A DNA stretch of 64,000 nucleotides from a virus: IMG/VR virus record IMGVR_UViG_3300046694_000223, positions 1 to 64,000 of that record; one strand, 5' to 3'. The notes beneath the pieces were generated by a model that saw only the letters and a program-made list of their open reading frames with translations, made no database searches and was not told where the DNA came from. Of this stretch, positions 27,201-52,878 are shown one piece after another (position 1 is the stretch's first letter; every line of letters begins with the position of its first letter). A program made the translations under genes and the position numbers.

Positions 27201-28239
27201 TTATGTATTCGTATTTATCATAGATTGATTTAAACAATCCCCTAAGTTCAAATTCAGGCAGTTCGATTTTGGGAATAATAGTTGGCTTTAGTAGTGTGTA
27301 TTCTTCAATCTTGTTTCCAATTTCCATTGTATTGTCTAATGCAATTTTGATTACGTCATGATCCAAGTAACTTAAACGTTCTGTGATTTCTTCTTTAGTT
27401 TGAACAAATGTTGCTTCATAAAATGAATCGACTTCACGTTCAGCGTCTTTTGCATTGAGAAATGCTCTGTGAACAACTCGATCATCTGGACGTAAGAAAT
27501 GGCTATCTGTTGTGATTATGTATTTGAGATTATAAATCGCTGCAAGCTTAAGTAATTCTTTATTACAAAAAATTTGTTCGTCTGAATATGCTGGTTGAAG
27601 CTCCAGATAGAAGTCTTCTCTTCCAAATACACCAATACACCAGTCAGTGAAATCACACGCTTTTTTATAGCTTTCGTCTGCTTTATTTTTATCATTGTTT
27701 TCTAGATGAATTTTCATTTCAAGTAAATAAATACAATGAGGAGAACCAAGACATGCGCTTGAAGCGATCAAATGTCCCGGATCTCTTTTGGTGATGGATT
27801 CAACCAAACGGCGTTCGGTAGGTGTTCTTAACATTGGCCCTGTGTAAAACGAACTAATCCATGCCTGAGAACTCATATAGCGAATTTGCTCATGCCCGAT
27901 TTCATCCTTGGCAAGCAAAAGAAAATGTGGAAATTTTGTGACTCCAGATTTATAGTTATTTTTACTGTCTTCTGTGCTTTCAACTAAATAAATCTCATTT
28001 CCCAAGATGAGTTTAAAGTCTTCTGATATCTTACCTTTTTCTTTTAAATTGGTGACTGTCTGGATAGCCTTTACGTGGGCGCTTATGGACTCATGATCTG
28101 TTATGGCTACTCCCTTATGACCCATATCGTATGCAGTTTGTATAAGCCCTTCTACAGTGTTTGTGGTATCACGTAGCTTGAGGTTTGATCCTCTATCGAT
28201 ATGATTATGAAGTAAAATTGAATCACATTGGTTACACAA
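24298..28239 (-). CDS. dnaE: DNA polymerase III alpha subunit (phage DnaE, YorL-like)
   Basis: PHP domain (AITDHE, TTDSH), RGSSAG, PDIDID, SIHASG, KFDLL, YSFSILH; uninterrupted 1313 aa. Confidence 0.96.
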   Translation of the reverse strand: MCNQCDSILLHNHIDRGSNLKLRDTTNTVEGLIQTAYDMGHKGVAITDHESISAHVKAIQTVTNLKEKGKISEDFKLILGNEIYLVESTEDSKNNYKSGVTKFPHFLLLAKDEIGHEQIRYMSSQAWISSFYTGPMLRTPTERRLVESITKRDPGHLIASSACLGSPHCIYLLEMKIHLENNDKNKADESYKKACDFTDWCIGVFGREDFYLELQPAYSDEQIFCNKELLKLAAIYNLKYIITTDSHFLRPDDRVVHRAFLNAKDAEREVDSFYEATFVQTKEEITERLSYLDHDVIKIALDNTMEIGNKIEEYTLLKPTIIPKIELPEFELRGLFKSIYDKYEYINKMAHSDNSQDRYIVKLIEDGFYELLPYNTYSKEKLHQVAARIDIELGELWKTSQVVNQSVASYYITVREIVNVIWDDECGDSLVGPSRGSSAGWIVCFLMGITQINPLEYGIEMPHWRHLTAERPEFPDIDIDTEAAKRGQIFRQLKKHFGEDRVLQVCTFGTEASKSAVQSAARGLGIDNDTAMHISGLIPFERGSNWTLSDCVNGNEEKERKPVQEFIDGINKHENWLNVSMKIEGLVNKRSIHASGAILFNEEYYKTNAIMTAPNGTHVTQFSLEDCEAVSNMKFDLLTIEGLDKIRVALDMLLEDNLIEWQGTIRKTYNKYLHPTVIDIKSPHVYDLIGSDSITDLFQFSTEIGIQTVKRTKPANLIELASANSLMRLMGGGHGMETPIDSFIRFKNDISLWYEEMHKHNLSDEEIKVLEKHLLSLNGVADTQESIMLLSMDKAIAGFSIQEANKLRKIIAKKKAEEIEEIKAKFYKKGLELGNRVEMLDYVWNVQIVRQLGYSFSILHTLAYSVIALQEANLNINYDPIYWRTACLTVNSASIDDEDEDSKSQSTNYGKIASAIGSMQSHGVKIGLPNINKAHFGFKPDLVEDQIIFGLKGINGIGDDVVQHIIQNRPYTSFDDFLVRMYDTSIIKKAQLIQLIKAGCFETFGDRISVMKTFVNKLYIPKEKLNLQNLNAVIECGLIPQEMQQYSKLFNFRKYVMKKIHRKVDKDKYYALDKISTPFYYENFSDQGIKEYSGNFPVISENVFKKEYDKKMDGIREWLSLPETLEQFNTKQYEMEWESVAEGTVSKWEMDSLSFYYTEHELEHIDYTRYGISKFGDLPEEPIVASTMTFRNGNSRPKFKLDFITGTVLDKDKNKHTVALLTTDGVVTLKFSDGEFAYYNKQVSKPKPDGGKQIVEKTWFARGNKLVLCGYRRGAQFKPHRYKDTNVKHTTMLITAIGKDGSIKVETERKKIN

Positions 28240-40999: not shown

Positions 41000-41524
41000 C
41001 TATTTGCCCGTATGACCAAACCCGCCCGATCCTCGTTCTGTTTCGTCTAGTTCATCAACTTCGACAAATTTAACTGGTGGAACCTTGGCAACGACTCCTT
41101 GAGCAATGCGTTCTCCGTGCTTAACAGTAAATGACTCTTGCCCGTGGTTGATAAGAAGTACTTTAACTTCCCCTCGAAAATCGCTATCCACTGTTCCGGG
41201 AGTATTTAGCACCGTAATTCCATACTTATAAGCCAATCCGCTTCTTGGGCGAATCTGAAGCTCTTTGTTAAGCGGAATTGCAAAAGAAAGTCCTGTTGGA
41301 ATCAGTGCTCGTTGTCCTGGTTTAAGTATAATGGGTTCGCCCTCAATTGCTGCGTGGAAATCAAATCCGGCTGCTCCATTGCTTTGATATGATGGGATAG
41401 TCGCCAGTTCACTGAGTTTTTTTACTTTAATATTAGTAGTAAGATGCAATCTAACCCATTCACGCTGCATATCCTCATTCATAATCACTTCTTCTTGAAA
41501 TGGTTGTTTTATCATGTCTGTCAT
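41000..41524 (-). CDS. dut: Trimeric dUTPase
   Basis: AGFDF, RPRSG, GTVDSDFRGE, RIAQ and RGSGGFGHTG motifs. Confidence 0.96.
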   Translation of the reverse strand: MTDMIKQPFQEEVIMNEDMQREWVRLHLTTNIKVKKLSELATIPSYQSNGAAGFDFHAAIEGEPIILKPGQRALIPTGLSFAIPLNKELQIRPRSGLAYKYGITVLNTPGTVDSDFRGEVKVLLINHGQESFTVKHGERIAQGVVAKVPPVKFVEVDELDETERGSGGFGHTGK

Positions 41525-41557: not shown

Positions 41558-42262
41558 TTATTGGTTTGTAAAGTAAAATGTCCATCCTTTATAGGTGGGT
41601 GTTTTACCATTTAAACAATCAGAAACAGAAGATCTATTTAAATGGGGAAATTCTCTACAAAACTCCTTTAGACCAGTTCTTGGGTATTTTACTCCTTCTG
41701 GCGACATTGCTATAAATTCAAACTTACGCTTTTCATCGTCACGAAATTTATTGTTTATTTCTCTACTCACAAAGATACAAGTATCAAAAGAATAAATTTT
41801 GTTTGAGCGCCCCAATTGTTTGATATCTTTATCTAAAAAGATTTCGCCTTGTTTAAATAGTTTTTCGTCGTATCCTTCTATGGCAACCATATCTTTTAGA
41901 AAGTTAGAGAACGTCTTCCAGTGTTCAGAAACAGTCACTCCGTTGCCGCCATAGTTCGGATATGCTTTACACTTTGGCTCATAACATCTCTCTAACATAT
42001 CACTCCAAAGATTGTACTCTTTCTTACAATTAACCATCTTAATTTCACCCAAGGAACCGACCCCAAATACAGATGGGGTCAACTTATCCTTAATTTTGCC
42101 TCTTTTTATTTCAACCTTTTCAATATCACGTTCATAACCTGTTTTATTGAATCTAATACGATATACTTTATTCTTATTGGGTTTAATTCTGGATATATAA
42201 AGGACTTGGTACTCTTGATCAGAGTTATTTTTAAATATCATACCTATGAGTTCATCATCCAT
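41558..42262 (-). CDS. Free-standing homing-endonuclease-like protein with C-terminal NUMOD-like HTH
   Basis: PSVFGVG, W.DML.RCY, YPNYGG.G.TV, LDKD...YS..TC.FV; start overlaps the nrdF stop. Confidence 0.7.
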
Positions 42263-43232
42263 TAAAATAAAAATCCTCATCTTTTAGTGCCTCTGTTACC
42301 GCCTTTTGATATGAATTACCTTTTAGTGAGAAGAAGTCCATAGACTTTGTTTTAGTGTCAAGGCCATTAATTACAACCGGATTGATTTCTTCATCTTCAA
42401 AATAAGTTTCTAACCCAAGGTTCTGCAAGGCTTTATTGGCATTATATCTAAGAAACTTTTTTACATCATGAGTCAATCCAAGATCATCGTACAGTTGTTC
42501 AGTATAAGTAAGTTCATTGTCATAAAGTCTCTTTAGAAGTTCAATAGAAAACTTGGTCAGCTCCTGTTTGATCGCATCTGATTGTTTGTTATACATCTCC
42601 TGTGCCAAGAGTCCGATGTAAACTCCATGAATAGATTCGTCTCTCAAAATCAAGTTAATAATCTCTCCACTTTGCATCATTCTTCCTTGTCCATAACAGA
42701 GTAAAGGATAATAGAAGCCACTATAAAACAGAAAACTTTCGAGATAAACAGACGCTACCATTGCTTTATACAATGAAATATCATCATTATCTTTTACATC
42801 ATTATAAATATTAACAATAGCACTGGCTTTCTTTTGAAGATATTTATTGTCTTTCACCCACTGGAATAACTCTTTGATTTCTTCGCTTGGGGCCAAGGTC
42901 ATGAAGATATTAGAATAAGACTTAGCATGTACTGCATTTTCCATCATAGCCATGAAATTAAGAACTGCTTTACGTTGATGTCCTTTAACCTGAGCAGCAA
43001 TCAATGGCATTCCTGTATTACCTTGCTCTGTATCAAGTAGGGTAAGCCCCGCTAGAGCCTTCTTATATGTATCCTTCTCTGGAATACTCATTGACTTCCA
43101 CATTAGCAAGTCTGAATTAAGAGAAATCTCTTCGGGCAACCAGAACTGTTTTACATTTTGATTATAGAACATCTGAGTGAATGAATCTTCTTCTGAAGAC
43201 CAATCTGCGGCATCATAGATTTTAGTAGTCAA
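42255..43232 (-). CDS. nrdF: Class Ib ribonucleotide reductase beta subunit
   Basis: [39 protein letters not shown]. Confidence 0.97.
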
Positions 43233-48614: not shown

Positions 48615-50083
48615 TACACCAACTCTGATTTCTTCTTATAATTAACAACGATTTCAACATAGTCGCCATCTTGTAATTGATAGAAATGGTTTCGGTGATA
48701 CATTGCACCATCAATTCCCTCTAATAAATCCGAAGAGTTCTCCAGATTATTATTTTCGTCTTTAATATACCATCGTTCGCTTTGTTCGACTAAAGTTCCT
48801 TTTATGATAATATTATTCAACCTACGCACCCTTTCTTGATAAAATATTATTTTTATTAATTATTTTTTACTCTTGGAATCCTTCATTGTAAAACTGTAAA
48901 AACATTTGCGATAAGCTCAACAACGTTTCTTTTTTAATCTCTGCTACTTTCTCTCCATCAATAATGAAAGAAACTGTTTTTGGATCAATGGATTCAAGCA
49001 TATATTCTGCAAACGAAAGTGGTGTACGACCTTCTGAGTTTAGATTCTCTTTGTCCATAGTGTAGATACAAATTGCTTTCTTCGTGAATGTTGTCATTTA
49101 TTTATTCTCCTATTTTCATATTTTTATTAATTATTCAATACCTTACATCTGCAACCTCAATCATCTCTCCCACTCTCAGCACATTGCCTTGATCAAAGAA
49201 TTTATCCATCGCATATTTAACAGCCATCTCTTCCATCTGTCCAATATCAATCTCTTCTTCATCCGAAGAAACCTCCAGACAGTCACTCGCATCAACGAAT
49301 ACATTAAAATTAAATTTACTATCCAACACTCCACTATCTTTATATGTAGCAAGTTCTACAGTAAACAGAATTCCCGTATCCACTCTACTCCTCCTTTCCC
49401 ATTTGATCATAATAAATTCTCATATCAAATTCTCTCCAGGCTTCATACCAAACTTTTTCATCTAAAGCATCCATCTTTTTAAATTCCTTTGCTCCAATAA
49501 AATCTCTGAGCCTCTTCTTCACATAAACATCTTCATGTAATTGAGATTCATTATCTGTTCCAACATCACTTTTGAAACAATCGTATAATGCATCTCCCAA
49601 ACTTATGTATGTTTTATTCAACTCTTCTTAATAACACCTCCATATTCTCCGACCTCATAACCATCTGGAAGATCAACGATGTCCCACTGAGATAGGATAG
49701 CATCTAGTCTGTTACCCAATACTTTACCAAATGCTCCACTTTCATCAAAAAAGTGTACTGATCCGCCGAACATAGAATATTCAAGTGTTCCAAGAGTCCC
49801 ATCTTCTTTGTGCTTAAGAATTGTCTTCAACTTCTAACCTCCTATATTATCATTATATTTATTATTTAAATATTTGTCAACATGTTTCGTAATCAATTAT
49901 GTAATTGCCATCTTCGCTAAAATATAATTCACTTGTCGCCACAAACACACATTTACCATCATGTGAAACCGGAGCGATATTATCAAACATTCTAAAGCAA
50001 TCACCTTGTTTTAGATTATAAAATAGTGTTGGCTCCCATTTACCATTGACCAGTTTTTGAGTTGTTCTGATTACTCTACTCAC
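48614..50083 (-). CDS. Run of small hypothetical genes (48614, 48867, 49135, 49385, 49618, 49877)
   Basis: Co-oriented short ORFs. Confidence 0.6.
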
Positions 50084-50490
50084 TTCAAAAACTTCTCAAT
50101 CTCATTAATTTCAAGCTCAACCTTTTTGTCGTCAGATAATAGTTGATCCAGTTTGACTTCCATTGCTTTTAGCTTTGTTTCTTCTTCTTTCTTACCAAGA
50201 ATATTAAGTTTTGATTTAAGATCAGCAATCCAATCCATAACATTGTATCCGCTAAGATTATAATCCTCTAACACACCTAGTTCATTTGCCGAAATAGCAT
50301 AAGAATTAAGTTTAACCATTAACAATAGAATCTGTTCCTTGCTAAGAACATTGATATTATGTCTAATGCCATCAATTTCAATAGAACAATTAGTGACTGG
50401 AGTAAACTTCTGCAACTTACCAACTTGCTTCTTTTTGTCTTCAATCTGCTTCTTAAGTTCTAGAATTTTTTGATCATTGTTATTTGCCAT
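50080..50490 (-). CDS. Hypothetical helical protein coupled to the upstream gene
   Basis: ATG after ggagg. Confidence 0.6.
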   Translation of the reverse strand: MANNNDQKILELKKQIEDKKKQVGKLQKFTPVTNCSIEIDGIRHNINVLSKEQILLLMVKLNSYAISANELGVLEDYNLSGYNVMDWIADLKSKLNILGKKEEETKLKAMEVKLDQLLSDDKKVELEINEIEKFLK

Positions 50491-50491
50491 C

Positions 50492-51616
50492 TTAACCAAT
50501 CCTCCGATATAGTTTTCCATTTTCTAAATACTCGTTCTTGTACATTGGTGAATAAAGTTCATAAACAGTGTGGATATCACCAATATAAATTCTCTCATAT
50601 TCACGATTGGTAGCAACATAGTTACCATCTTTGTAGAACTGGCTTGTATTTATATCATAGTGAACTCGTTCAGTCTTATCTGGTTCAATATATAGGTCAA
50701 CAACACTTCCCCAGTGGGTATCTTTGAATTCTTTGTTTTTAATATATTCCTCAAAATCACTCAATGAATAAAGCATCCACTCGTCTTTTGACTTATCTCT
50801 ATGAGAATATTCAGTCTGTCTTTCTACCCAATCAAACCATTCAGCATAATCCTCTGCACATTCGCTTGAAACAACTTCGATGAATCTATCTCCTAGTGAC
50901 TTGATTGTTGATAATGTTTTATACTTCTCTCCATGAGTATATTCTGATTCTTTCACAAAGAAATGATGCTTCCCCTTTGAAATGTTGTGATAGACATATG
51001 TATACTGCGGAGAACTCCAGTAACCACTCGATTTACCCGTTAAAATCTGTTCAGACTTAGTATCCTTCAGATCGAATCTGCCCATGTAAATCCACTCTTG
51101 ATTATCTTTAGATTTATAAGTAGCCCCAATAATCAAATCTTTAGCTTTTACAAAATTCTTCTCATGTAGAATTTTATTGAATGAGCTTATCTCTTGGTAG
51201 TCTGGAGATTCTACGGGTAGTAAAACCAATTCCTTTCCATCCCAAGCATAAACGAACTCCCCTTCGAGTCCTTTACCTTTAATTGAGTTTGCATTTTCCA
51301 GGATATAAAGTAAGTTCTCGATAGTTATCTCAAATTCGAAATTGCGCTCGTCGTATATTCTGACGTAGGCCTGCCGATGATTCCAATCGGACGTATAATC
51401 TCCTACCTTTTTATTCATCACAAATCCAGACGTAGGTAGATTTATATATTCTTCTGTTTCTATATCTTTATCTATCCAATTAATCCATGATTTTTCTTTT
51501 CGTAGGACTCCTTTATGATCATAATAGATGACATATGCTAACTTGCCTGTGTAAGTATTGTCTCTTTTTTGAAATCCCACCTTTATTTTTTGTGGTATAA
51601 AAATAGAACTTTTCAT
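50492..51616 (-). CDS. Phage hypothetical protein, apparent target of the adjacent endonuclease insertion
   Basis: Start MKSSIFIPQKIKVGFQ after aggaggg RBS. Confidence 0.7.
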   Translation of the reverse strand: MKSSIFIPQKIKVGFQKRDNTYTGKLAYVIYYDHKGVLRKEKSWINWIDKDIETEEYINLPTSGFVMNKKVGDYTSDWNHRQAYVRIYDERNFEFEITIENLLYILENANSIKGKGLEGEFVYAWDGKELVLLPVESPDYQEISSFNKILHEKNFVKAKDLIIGATYKSKDNQEWIYMGRFDLKDTKSEQILTGKSSGYWSSPQYTYVYHNISKGKHHFFVKESEYTHGEKYKTLSTIKSLGDRFIEVVSSECAEDYAEWFDWVERQTEYSHRDKSKDEWMLYSLSDFEEYIKNKEFKDTHWGSVVDLYIEPDKTERVHYDINTSQFYKDGNYVATNREYERIYIGDIHTVYELYSPMYKNEYLENGKLYRRIG

Positions 51617-51626
51617 ATTTGCCCTC

Positions 51627-52394
51627 CTAGTCATTCATTTCTACTTCATAATTTAATAATGCTTGATATAATTTATAAGGAATTTTGCTTTTATACTTCT
51701 CAACGACCTCTTTAATATGTGATTCCTTGCATAACTTATAACAGTCAAAAGCTTCCACTTCTTCGTTCAGCTCAAAAACGCCAATGCAAATTCTTTTGTT
51801 TGTGATTTGGTTTGTGTATTGTACTTTTAATTTATTTGCCCTTGGGTCAAAGTGGACTCCGATAGGATAACTCCCTCTTCTTGTATTGCACTTATTAAGT
51901 ATTGAATTAATATTGTGTGGTACGAATATACATGTCTCCGGCGAATAAACTTTATTGCCTTTGACAAGTAAATCTTTATCTAATTCGAGTTGTTCATTGT
52001 TGATATTGTAATAATTTTCTTCGCACCACTTTGCGAAATTTTGATAGTTGTGCCACTCTTCGCAAACTGTGCAACCTACATAAGATATATTGTTTTTAGT
52101 CTGATCTCCATAACATCTATTTAGCATATTAACCCACTTAGAATAAAACAAAGATTTTTGTCCATTGTATCTTGATTTATATGTCCCGCTGCCCATATAA
52201 CCCACGCCGCATACAAAAGGAAAATATGAATTCTTTATAGAGCCTGATTTTACCTGATTCCATTTCACATTCTTTTCATAACCAAAAATATCTAAAAATT
52301 TAATTCTAATATTTCGTGTATTAGTATAACTAATTATTGTAAATTTACTTCCCTGTGTATTTGTATAAATCTTTTTTTCTCTTTCGTTTAACAT
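51627..52394 (-). CDS. Free-standing homing-endonuclease-like protein (same family as 41558-42262)
   Basis: P.VCGVGY, W.NML.RCY, TVCEEWHNYQNF, LDKD...YSPETCIFVP; AP2-like C-terminus PIGVHF. Confidence 0.75.
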   Translation of the reverse strand: MLNEREKKIYTNTQGSKFTIISYTNTRNIRIKFLDIFGYEKNVKWNQVKSGSIKNSYFPFVCGVGYMGSGTYKSRYNGQKSLFYSKWVNMLNRCYGDQTKNNISYVGCTVCEEWHNYQNFAKWCEENYYNINNEQLELDKDLLVKGNKVYSPETCIFVPHNINSILNKCNTRRGSYPIGVHFDPRANKLKVQYTNQITNKRICIGVFELNEEVEAFDCYKLCKESHIKEVVEKYKSKIPYKLYQALLNYEVEMND

Positions 52395-52405
52395 ATGATT
52401 ATCCT

Positions 52406-52489
52406 CTATGCCAATTTCTTCGTATATGTATCGTTGCGATCCTGGAAACCAACTTTAATCTTTTGTGGTACAAATATATTTGTTTTAAT
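52406..52489 (-). pseudogene. Orphaned 5' fragment (27 codons) of the 50492-51616 gene
   Basis: IKTNIFVPQKIKVGFQDRNDTYTKKLA* versus MKSSIFIPQKIKVGFQKRDNTYTGKLAY. Confidence 0.85.
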
Positions 52490-52531
52490 ATTTATTCACC
52501 CTTTCAATTTTTTCATTTATAGCACATTTAC

Positions 52532-52765: not shown

Positions 52766-52878
52766 TTTTATATTTCCCTTTCTTTTCTTGATAAAAGTTA
52801 CATTTTATGAGGTTTTATACACTATATATAGATATACTATTAATGTTAAACACTATATATAGTATATAAAATGTATAT

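What the first reader, a model, noticed from the sequence alone, without database searches (positions are those of the whole stretch)
50492..52505. Endonuclease gene inserted into its target and carrying a recoded replacement 5' end
Upstream of the endonuclease is an RBS (aaagggtga) and a 27-codon stub, IKTNIFVPQKIKVGFQDRNDTYTKKLA* (52489-52406). Downstream, with a new RBS, the full gene restarts as MKSSIFIPQKIKVGFQKRDNTYTGKLAY (51616). The peptides match closely while many codons differ (aag att aaa gtt ggt ttc cag versus aaa ata aag gtg gga ttt caa). The stub ends gca taG where the intact gene has gca taT, which marks the insertion point. The stub's stop runs into the endonuclease RBS (tagagga). 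Inference: intron-less homing in which the element repairs the gene it breaks with a diverged, cleavage-resistant copy and uses the stub for translational coupling.
Basis: partly seen in the sequence, partly recalled or inferred. Interest (0 to 1): 0.72.

Follow-up and report, generated by a model that had tools for sequence, protein, structure and literature searches.

The report
Homing endonuclease cassette replacing a gene start
A selfish endonuclease gene sits 27 codons into a conserved phage gene, has brought about 400 bases of a foreign copy of that gene's start, and has left the phage's own start as a dead stub; this is the mirror image of a design known from fungal mitochondria.

Summary
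On the minus strand lie a ribosome-binding site plus a 27-codon stub (52489-52406), a 255-aa endonuclease gene (HEG, 52394-51627), and the complete 374-aa target gene (51616-50492).

An endonuclease-free relative (L011) has one uninterrupted gene. It starts with the stub-type sequence, including the rare ATT start: 77/83 bases match the stub, against 57/83 for the replacement copy.

The replaced piece is not 27 codons but about 400 nt of a foreign allele. The breakpoint is at nt 397, with 67% identity before it and 85% after (0/1000 permutations).

Endonuclease orthologues (70-75% identical, dN/dS 0.08-0.27) lie directly upstream of the same gene in five other contexts. Three of these carry their own lineage-specific stubs and two have none. 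A 44%-identical paralogue shows the same layout in a thyX-like gene.

The enzyme belongs to the divergent HNH-AP2 ("IPA-HNH") homing endonucleases. It lacks the canonical catalytic His, so nuclease activity, resistance of the new allele and translational coupling are all inferred.

Closest precedents are the fungal mitochondrial mORF gene hybrids, which do the same at the 3' end, and T4 intronless homing. Unchecked notes from this scan report the same design in at least 10 other genomes. I rate it a new variant of a known kind, of moderate interest.

The parts
52490..52516 (-). Resident upstream leader with RBS AAAGGGTGA of the original gene start
   Evidence: Homology to endonuclease-free relative L011 begins at 52516. 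Window 52516-52407 against L011 3968-4077 is 90.9% identical over 110 nt. Further upstream the two phages carry different genes.
52406..52489 (-). Stub: the resident 5' end of the target gene (ATT start, 27 codons, TAG)
   Evidence: 77/83 nt identical to the start of L011's uninterrupted gene, with 5 synonymous and 1 non-synonymous codon differences. Only 55/83 identical to the copy downstream. Second-best match of the target protein in the genome, E 3.6e-7.
52400..52405 (-). Left junction of the cassette (ATAGAGGA): the stub stop TAG runs into the endonuclease Shine-Dalgarno GAGGA
   Evidence: Homology to L011 ends after GCATA. The same ATAG(G/A)AGG left end precedes the endonuclease in L014, L048, L044 and L045.
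51627..52394 (-). Homing endonuclease gene, 255 aa, divergent HNH-AP2 (IPA-HNH) type
   Evidence: PHROG 953 'HNH endonuclease', E 2e-60; no Pfam or NCBIfam hit. Model pLDDT 91.5. Domains: SH3-like barrel aa 1-52; beta-beta-alpha unit aa 136-166 with invariant K140, D141, N147, N163 and a weak PacI match, Z 4.5; AP2 domain aa 170-255, Z 6.6 to WRI1 and 6.3 to ERF1. Full-length homologue of the ICP1 gene beside its DNA polymerase, E 1e-25. dN/dS 0.08-0.27 against five orthologues.
51623..51629 (-). Endonuclease stop TAG overlapping the RBS (AGGAGG) of the replacement gene start
   Evidence: GAT/GAC TAG GAGG followed 5-7 nt later by ATG is conserved in all six endonuclease-linked loci.
51220..51616 (-). 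Foreign (donor-derived) 5' tract of the target gene, nt 1-397, now the functional gene start
   Evidence: 67.0% nt identity to L011 here against 85.3% in the rest of the gene. Third codon positions: 39% against 68%. Maximum chi-square breakpoint at nt 397, 0/1000 permutations (profile). In a tree of nt 4-396 it groups with endonuclease-linked alleles (85/90 support).
50492..51219 (-). Resident 3' part of the target gene (phrog_2475, function unknown)
   Evidence: Groups with L011 and L012 at 99% SH-aLRT; 85% nt identity to L011. PHROG 2475, E 2e-105.
50080..50490 (-). Conserved downstream partner gene (136 aa, phrog_2574), context only
   Evidence: Follows the target gene in the window, L011, L012, L013, L014, L044 and L045. 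PHROG 2574, E 3e-43.

Best explanation
This is a free-standing homing endonuclease cassette that invades the 5' end of a conserved phage gene and needs no splicing.

The mobile unit is the endonuclease gene with its own RBS (left end ATAG-GAGG) plus the start of a linked allele of the target gene, which lies directly downstream.

Proposed sequence of events:
1. The enzyme cuts endonuclease-free alleles around codons 21-28. This stretch encodes the invariant residues T-Y-T-x-K-L-A-Y.
2. The break is repaired from a co-infecting donor. On the right side, repair is by homologous recombination inside the gene. Here the crossover lay near nt 397, so about 400 nt of foreign sequence came in.
3. On the left side, the recipient's own first 78-83 nt stay in place ahead of the endonuclease as a stub.
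4. The insertion splits the recognition region in the stub, and the linked allele differs there. The invaded genome is then presumably immune.
5. In later rounds the stub probably serves as the upstream homology arm. That would explain why the junction is inherited while the body of each stub matches its own phage lineage.

Shown: the anatomy; the uninvaded state in a relative; the recombination breakpoint; the recurrence of endonuclease plus linked allele in six contexts; purifying selection on the endonuclease.

Inferred: nuclease activity, position of the cut, immunity of the linked allele, and the role of the stub.
For: 1. Uninvaded state. L011 has no endonuclease and one intact gene. Its start, RBS and ATT codon match the stub at 77/83 nt, against 57/83 for the replacement copy.

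2. Breakpoint. It lies at nt 397: 67% identity before it and 85% after, 0/1000 permutations.

3. Tree incongruence. The 3' part groups with L011 and L012 (99% support). The 5' part groups with endonuclease-linked alleles (85/90 support).

4. Recurrence. Orthologous endonucleases, 70-75% identical, lie directly upstream of the same gene in L014, L044, L048, L045 and L051, always with TAG overlapping GGAGG. L014, L044 and L048 carry stubs of 25, 21 and 26 target-derived codons.

5. Allele clustering. Linked alleles resemble each other (72-85% over nt 4-63). Each stub is only 62-73% identical to its own linked allele and is closest to an endonuclease-free allele (window stub to L011, 93%).

6. 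Stub divergence. Stubs differ from one another with dN 0.13-0.18 and dS from 0.8 to saturation, so they diverged while they were coding sequence.

7. Inherited junction. L014 and L048 share the same junction, although stub dS is 1.72 and endonuclease dS is 0.35.

8. Same layout elsewhere. A 44%-identical paralogue in L061 sits in a thyX-like gene behind a 41-codon stub.

9. Nature of the protein. PHROG HNH E 2e-60; AP2 fold Z 6.6; homologue of an ICP1 IPA-HNH-type gene E 1e-25; dN/dS 0.08-0.27.

10. Target site. The junction falls in codons for invariant residues T21, Y22, T23, L26, A27, Y28, as is usual for homing targets.

11. Known mechanisms. Co-conversion and one-sided homing with illegitimate repair are described in T4 (PMC2988022). 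Foreign gene ends carried by endonuclease ORFs, leaving a native relic, are described in fungal mitochondria (PMC3630166).
Against: - No close donor was found. All other cassettes are only about 74% identical in nucleotides to the window's.
- The AU test does not reject placing the window's 5' tract with L011-L013 (p 0.17).
- The 5' end of this gene is mosaic even among endonuclease-free relatives (L012 against L011 and L013). Exchange there therefore does not always leave an endonuclease behind.
- The nuclease domain has no Pfam hit and only a weak structural match to an HNH enzyme (PacI, Z 4.5). It has Lys where HNH enzymes have the general-base His.
- One orthologue (L045) sits upstream of a TYTKK-type allele with no stub. 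GK and KK alleles are both common in the family, so the proposed immunity determinant is weak.
- Stub lengths differ (63-83 nt). The single-origin reading needs later small deletions to explain that.
Confidence: 0.8

Rival explanations
1. The homing is the same, but the stub is only a scar. The endonuclease normally lives between genes, upstream of its target. Where the donor's and recipient's upstream regions are not homologous, the left break end is joined by illegitimate or microhomology repair. Each such event leaves a fresh stub with no later role.
For: The region upstream of the target differs between the window and L011. Two orthologues, L045 and L051, have no stub. Stub ends vary between nt 64 and nt 83. 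A 3-nt ATA overlap exists at the window junction. One-sided homing with junctions at microhomologies is documented in T4 (PMC2988022).
Against: The donor-side junction is the same point, immediately before ATAG-GAGG, in five contexts. L014 and L048 share the whole junction while their stub bodies are saturated at synonymous sites. Independent illegitimate joins should land at varied donor positions.
Confidence: 0.3
2. The 255-aa protein is not a nuclease but a DNA-binding protein (SH3-like plus AP2 domains). The stub and the foreign 5' tract come from ordinary mosaic recombination between phages, with this gene as a passenger.
For: There is no Pfam or NCBIfam nuclease hit and the canonical catalytic His is absent. 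Structural neighbours of the middle domain include DUF723 proteins. The 5' end of the target is mosaic in endonuclease-free phages too.
Against: PHROG HNH families match at E 2e-60 to 1e-40. The protein is homologous to ICP1 genes that HHsearch assigned to HNH (PMC10448857). The beta-beta-alpha unit has invariant D/K/D, N and N. The same core is joined to a different DNA-binding tail in the paralogue at 41558-42280. The gene shows presence/absence polymorphism exactly at a conserved coding site in six contexts, and again in thyX.
Confidence: 0.08
3. A local tandem duplication of the gene's 5' end arose within this phage and the copies then diverged in place. The endonuclease landed between them by coincidence.
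For: Two copies of the same 27 codons lie 870 nt apart on the same strand.
Against: The stub is 93% identical to the orthologue in L011 but 66% identical to its neighbour copy. The divergent tract runs to nt 397, well beyond the duplicated 83 nt. The neighbour copy groups with endonuclease-linked alleles of other phages.
Confidence: 0.03
4. A metagenome assembly chimera joining two strains.
For: The record is an uncultivated-virus contig.
Against: The same layout occurs in four independent assemblies, one of them a contig of the NCBI genome assembly GCA_018998565.1, named Paenibacillus oleatilyticus. The contig has terminal repeats and 100% estimated completeness.
Confidence: 0.01

Closest known systems
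Mobile endonuclease ORFs (mORFs) of fungal mitochondria that create gene hybrids: Allomyces macrogynus atp6; Glomus sp. atp6, atp9, cox2, nad3 (PMC3630166; C-terminal duplications also in PMC6279837)
   Same: An endonuclease ORF enters a coding gene together with a foreign copy of the displaced gene end. The native end is left next to it as a relic. The native relic is close to the sister species (91% in Glomus, 93% here) and far from the inserted copy (63.5% in Glomus, 66% here). No splicing is involved.
   Different: In fungi the 3' end (C-terminus) is replaced, the relic lies downstream, and the enzymes are LAGLIDADG or GIY-YIG. Here the 5' end is replaced, the relic lies upstream and keeps the promoter side, RBS and start codon, the enzyme is HNH-AP2 type, and the host is a phage.
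Intronless homing by free-standing endonucleases of T4-like phages (SegB, SegF, SegG, MobE), with co-conversion and marker exclusion (PMC2988022, PMC2330249, PMC2790892)
   Same: A free-standing endonuclease gene next to its target. The cut is in the endonuclease-free allele. Flanking donor sequence is co-converted, and the result is a mosaic target gene.
   Different: In the T4 cases covered by that review the endonuclease sits between intact genes with homology on both sides. The review does not use the word 'duplicat' at all.
MobA / gene 60 and MobE / nrdA (Aeh1) insertions into coding regions (PMC2988022)
   Same: An HNH-type free-standing endonuclease inserted inside a conserved coding region of a phage gene.
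   Different: Those insertions split the gene into two polypeptides that reassemble (or need ribosomal bypassing). Here the gene stays whole because a full replacement start is supplied.
IPA-HNH (HNH-AP2) homing endonucleases of ICP1, Barbaviruses and Flaumdraviruses (Barth, Dunham & Seed 2023, PMC10448857)
   Same: A divergent HNH-like core that the Pfam HNH_3 profile does not detect, with a C-terminal AP2 domain. Located beside essential genes and at boundaries of genetic exchange. The window protein matches an ICP1 gene beside DNA polymerase over its full length (E 1e-25). The taxon spread of hits matches that paper (Vibrio 823, Rheinheimera 115, Pseudomonas 59).
   Different: A term search of that paper found no mention of stub-plus-replacement architecture. 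It treats these endonucleases as mostly free-standing.

Membership tests
IPA-HNH / HNH-AP2 homing endonucleases | C-terminal AP2 DNA-binding domain | tested here: met
   Model residues 170-255 align to the WRI1 and ERF1 AP2 domains: Z 6.6 (rmsd 2.5, 63 aligned) and Z 6.3 (rmsd 2.2, 59 aligned). The profile hit to WRI1 AP2 is weak, E 0.14. Many relatives carry PF00847.
IPA-HNH / HNH-AP2 homing endonucleases | Divergent HNH-like core missed by Pfam HNH profiles but homologous to ICP1 gp59/gp209-type proteins | tested here: met
   No Pfam hit even at E 10. tblastn to ICP1_2001_A 27261-28010 covers residues 1-250, E 1e-25, at the gene after DNA polymerase. PHROG 953 'HNH endonuclease', E 2e-60.
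HNH (beta-beta-alpha-Me) nuclease superfamily | Beta-beta-alpha metal finger fold | tested here: inconclusive
   The model has strand 136-139, strand 156-159 and helix 160-166. The only HNH-type structural match is PacI: Z 4.5, rmsd 4.0, 96 aligned, which is within background.
HNH (beta-beta-alpha-Me) nuclease superfamily | Catalytic His (general base) at the end of strand 1, plus Asn and Asn/His | tested here: not met
   Across 31 family members the invariant residues are K140, D141, N147 and N163 (motif LDKD...N...N). No His occupies the general-base position. The Asn positions are present.
Homing endonuclease gene (functional definition) | Presence/absence polymorphism at a fixed site in a conserved target, with flanking conversion | tested here: met
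   Absent in L003-L013; present at the same site in the window, L014, L044, L048, L045 and L051. Conversion tract to nt 397.
Homing endonuclease gene (functional definition) | Site-specific cleavage of the endonuclease-free allele and resistance of the endonuclease-bearing allele | not testable with these tools
   Needs enzyme assays. The only indirect hint is TYTKK in stubs against TYTGK in 5 of 6 linked alleles.
mORF-type gene-end replacement cassette | Native gene end kept as a relic that matches close relatives, while the inserted end is foreign | tested here: met
   Stub 93% identical to L011; inserted copy 69% to L011 and 66% to the stub. Trees.

The most novel reading that the evidence does not exclude
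Phage endonucleases of several families use a general third route into coding sequences, beside introns and inteins, that the papers I searched do not describe for phages: a 'gene-head replacement' cassette. In this reading the stub is a working part. It would serve as the upstream homology arm for the next round of homing. It would also deliver ribosomes and transcription to the endonuclease. The linked head would provide immunity. Repeated sweeps of such cassettes would then explain why the 5' end of this gene is mosaic even in phages that now lack the endonuclease.
Probability: 0.4. Interest if true: 0.7.

Novelty: new variant of a known kind. Interest (0 to 1): 0.55.

Why it matters
Homing endonucleases are thought to need an intron, an intein or an intergenic site in order to live beside essential genes without killing the host.

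This locus and its relatives show a fourth arrangement in phages. The element enters the reading frame itself and pays for the damage with a spare gene start.

It gives a compact, testable system: a 255-aa enzyme, an 80-nt stub, and natural sensitive and linked alleles. With it one can ask how much homology homing needs, how co-conversion tracts shape the mosaic structure of phage genes, and how immunity alleles arise.

For annotation it is also a practical warning. Short 'orphan' ORFs upstream of endonuclease genes may be decapitated gene starts. ATT-initiated genes can be mis-called: the ATG/GTG/TTG ORF list used here started L011's gene 25 codons late.

Tried and rejected
- Near-identical DNA in GenBank phages: nothing closer than 72%.
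- Search for the actual donor: viral contigs, a 5.8-billion-protein search restricted to the N-terminal 134 aa, and metagenome contigs. No allele is closer than about 75% nt or 84% aa, so the donor lineage remains unsampled.
- Fold of the target protein (pLDDT 87): no meaningful PDB match. Foldseek best E 0.016; VIA best Z 5.2, only an SH3-like barrel at aa 154-272. Function stays unknown.
- Pfam and NCBIfam for the endonuclease and the target: no hits.
- PDB sequence profile for the endonuclease: only a weak AP2 hit.
- AU test of the 5' tree: does not reject the alternative placement (p 0.17). I therefore rest the recombination claim on the breakpoint test, not on the tree.
- Screen of 57 loci with paralogous endonucleases for stubs of the downstream gene. 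Outside the orthologue group only L061 was positive. The apparent weak signal in the L025 group (z 3-4) turned out to be a spurious alignment.
- Genome-wide search for other stub-like duplicates in this phage: none near the second endonuclease at 41558-42280.
- K24G as the immunity determinant: downgraded after I found that GK and KK are both common in the family.
Full report
**What is in the sequence.** All genes in this part of the window run on the minus strand. From upstream to downstream they are:
- a 77-aa ORF (52765-52532);
- the leader AAAGGGTGA, then 7 nt, then ATT at 52489, opening a 27-codon frame that stops at TAG (52408-52406);
- GAGGA, 7 nt before the ATG at 52394 of a 255-aa ORF, which ends with TAG at 51629-51627;
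- AGGAGG (51628-51623), overlapping that stop;
- the ATG at 51616 of a 374-aa ORF ending at 50492;
- a 136-aa ORF (50490-50080).

The 27-codon frame repeats the first 27 codons of the 374-aa gene. 55 of 83 nt are identical, with 14 synonymous and 8 non-synonymous codon differences. A protein search of the whole 166.6-kb genome finds it as the only second match of that gene (E 3.6e-7). The genome is an IMG/VR virus record with terminal repeats.

**The uninvaded state exists.** A related 174.5-kb viral contig (L011) is 80-88% identical in nucleotides in the flanking genes and has no endonuclease here. Its single uninterrupted gene begins with the same RBS, the same spacing and the same ATT codon. 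Its first 83 nt match the stub at 77 positions, with 5 synonymous and 1 non-synonymous codon changes. They match the window's functional copy at only 57 positions. Where the stub reads GCA TAG, L011 reads GCA TAT GTA.

**How much DNA came in.** The window's functional gene is 67.0% identical to L011 over nt 1-397 and 85.3% afterwards. At third codon positions the figures are 39% and 68%. A maximum chi-square scan puts the breakpoint at nt 397 (window about 51219), and 0 of 1000 permutations reach the observed value. Stretches with identical amino acids, such as codons 106-120, are also only 73% identical in nucleotides. The 'recoding' is therefore the ordinary divergence of a foreign allele, not a designed patch. 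In trees, the 3' part groups with L011 and L012 (99% support). The 5' part groups with alleles that lie next to an endonuclease in other phages (85/90 support). An AU test does not reject the alternative placement (p 0.17), so I rely on the breakpoint test.

**The endonuclease and its linked gene head recur.** Orthologues of the 255-aa protein, 70-75% identical, occur in five further contexts:
- L014 and the near-identical L041-L043;
- L044, a contig of the NCBI genome assembly GCA_018998565.1, named Paenibacillus oleatilyticus;
- L045, L048 and L051.

In each they lie directly upstream of the same target gene, with their TAG stop overlapping its GGAGG. L014, L048 and L044 have stubs of 25, 26 and 21 target-derived codons. 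L045 and L051 have none. A 58%-identical relative (L050) is in an unrelated context.

Over nt 4-63 the linked gene heads resemble one another at 72-85%. Each stub is only 62-73% identical to its own linked head and is closest to some endonuclease-free allele.

Stubs differ from one another with dN 0.13-0.18 and dS from 0.8 to saturation. They therefore diverged while they were parts of working genes in different lineages.

L014 and L048 share the same stub/endonuclease junction (AAATTR followed by ATAG-GAGG), and L044 ends its stub in the same TTR|ATAG way. Yet the L014 and L048 stubs have dS 1.72 while their endonucleases have dS 0.35. The window's junction differs by two or three bases (TTGGC then ATAG).

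A junction that is inherited, next to a stub body that is lineage-specific, is what one expects if the stub serves as the upstream homology arm in later homing rounds. I hold this part at about even odds against the simpler view that each stub is a scar of one-sided, illegitimate repair. That process is documented for T4 intron homing (PMC2988022).

**Generality.** I screened 57 loci that carry paralogous endonucleases for a copy of the downstream gene's start lying upstream of the endonuclease. Outside the orthologue group there was one clear further case. In L061 a 44%-identical paralogue sits behind a 41-codon stub of a thyX-like gene and ahead of the complete gene. The endonuclease ATG lies right at the junction. 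The window's second paralogue (41558-42280, between nrdF and dUTPase) has no stub.

**What the protein is.**
- PHROG families annotated as HNH endonuclease match at E 2e-60 to 1e-40. Pfam and NCBIfam give nothing.
- A confident model (pLDDT 91.5) shows three parts: an SH3-like barrel (aa 1-52); a middle domain with a beta-beta-alpha unit (aa 136-166); and a C-terminal AP2 domain (Z 6.6 to WRI1, Z 6.3 to ERF1).
- The only HNH-type structural match, PacI at Z 4.5, is within background.
- Across 31 relatives the invariant residues of the beta-beta-alpha unit are K140, D141, N147 and N163. Lys stands where canonical HNH enzymes have the general-base His.
- The protein matches, over its full length (E 1e-25), the ICP1 gene next to that phage's DNA polymerase. 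Its hits are concentrated in Vibrio, Rheinheimera and Pseudomonas phages.
- This is the 'IPA-HNH' family of Barth, Dunham and Seed. They describe it as too divergent for the Pfam HNH_3 profile, assign it to HNH by HHsearch, and find it at boundaries of genetic exchange (PMC10448857).
- dN/dS of 0.08-0.27 among the six orthologues shows a protein kept by selection.

Nuclease activity itself is inferred.

**The target.** The 374-aa protein (phrog_2475) has no known function. Neither sequence profiles nor fold searches gave a usable match. Its N-terminal 140 residues are unusually conserved: the 120 best of more than 3,800 matching proteins are 72-84% identical. The junction falls in the codons for invariant T21, Y22, T23, L26, A27 and Y28. 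That is the kind of immutable site that homing endonucleases favour.

Five of six linked alleles read TYTGK there. All three stubs that reach this point read TYTKK. But GK and KK are both frequent in the family (62 against 39 of 120), and L045 is an exception. The proposed immunity difference is therefore only a lead.

**Translational coupling.** The only promoter-like site on this strand upstream lies at 52849-52821. The stub, the endonuclease and the target are thus probably co-transcribed. The stub keeps its RBS and start. Its frame closes 9 nt before the endonuclease ATG in the window, and overlaps the ATG in L048 (ATGA) and in L061. But the window's endonuclease has its own well-spaced GAGGA, and short fresh stubs would stay open by default. 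Coupling is possible but untested.

**Comparison with what is known.** The closest precedent is a mirror image. In fungal mitochondria, mobile endonuclease ORFs carry a foreign C-terminal gene end and leave the native C-terminus downstream as a relic. The identity pattern is almost the same: native relic 91% to the sister species and 63.5% to the insert (PMC3630166; also PMC6279837). T4 intronless homing supplies the mechanism, namely cleavage of the endonuclease-free allele and co-conversion (PMC2988022, PMC2790892). The MobA and MobE insertions show HNH-type genes inside coding regions, but there the gene is split rather than repaired. My literature searches found no description of the 5'-end version in phages. 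Earlier unchecked notes of this scan report the same design in at least ten other genomes with other endonuclease families.

**Verdict.** This is a real homing-type cassette, well supported by comparison with relatives. I rate it a new variant of a known kind. The biochemical steps remain to be shown.

Noticed in passing
window 52489-52487 (-) and L011:3995-3997: The target gene's native start codon in this lineage is ATT. It lies 7 nt after AAAGGGTGA, with an in-frame TGA three codons upstream. It is conserved in the window's stub and in L011's intact gene. Relatives use TTG or ATG, and the incoming allele brings ATG with a stronger AGGAGG. An ATG/GTG/TTG ORF list starts the L011 gene 25 codons late (349 aa).
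   Followed up: partly
window 41558-42280 (-): A second endonuclease paralogue (240 aa, 36% identical, same LDKD...N...N core) carries a different C-terminal tail, with a weak I-HmuI NUMOD-like hit (E 0.003). It lies between nrdF (42255-43232) and dUTPase (41000-41524), and its start overlaps the end of nrdF. There is no stub of a neighbouring gene.
   Followed up: partly
L011, L012, L013 (target gene nt 1-400): The 5' end of the target gene is mosaic even among endonuclease-free relatives. L012 equals L013 at 96% in nt 1-75, but equals L011 at 99-100% in nt 451-600 and only 64-76% in nt 1-300. This could be the trace of earlier endonuclease-driven sweeps, or of general recombination.
   Followed up: partly
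L061:1217-2270: A 44%-identical paralogous endonuclease in another metagenome contig shows the same stub/endonuclease/full-gene layout in a thyX-like gene. The stub has 41 codons and the endonuclease ATG sits exactly at the junction, with no obvious Shine-Dalgarno.
   Followed up: partly
window 52813-52871 (-): A promoter-like site TTAACA-17-TATAGT (52849-52821) lies inside a pair of 19-nt inverted repeats (95% complementary) containing ACACTATATATAG twice. Another first-stage note reads these as NrdR boxes. It is the only promoter-like site on this strand upstream of the stub, the endonuclease and the target.
   Followed up: no
window 50492-51616 (-), residues 1-140: The N-terminal domain of the target protein is 72-84% identical among the 120 best of more than 3,800 matching proteins, from Bacillus, Paenibacillus, Brevibacillus and many uncultured phages. 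It has about 60 invariant residues in a 40-sequence alignment. Yet it has no Pfam family, no PDB fold match and no known function. A 136-aa partner gene always follows it.
   Followed up: partly
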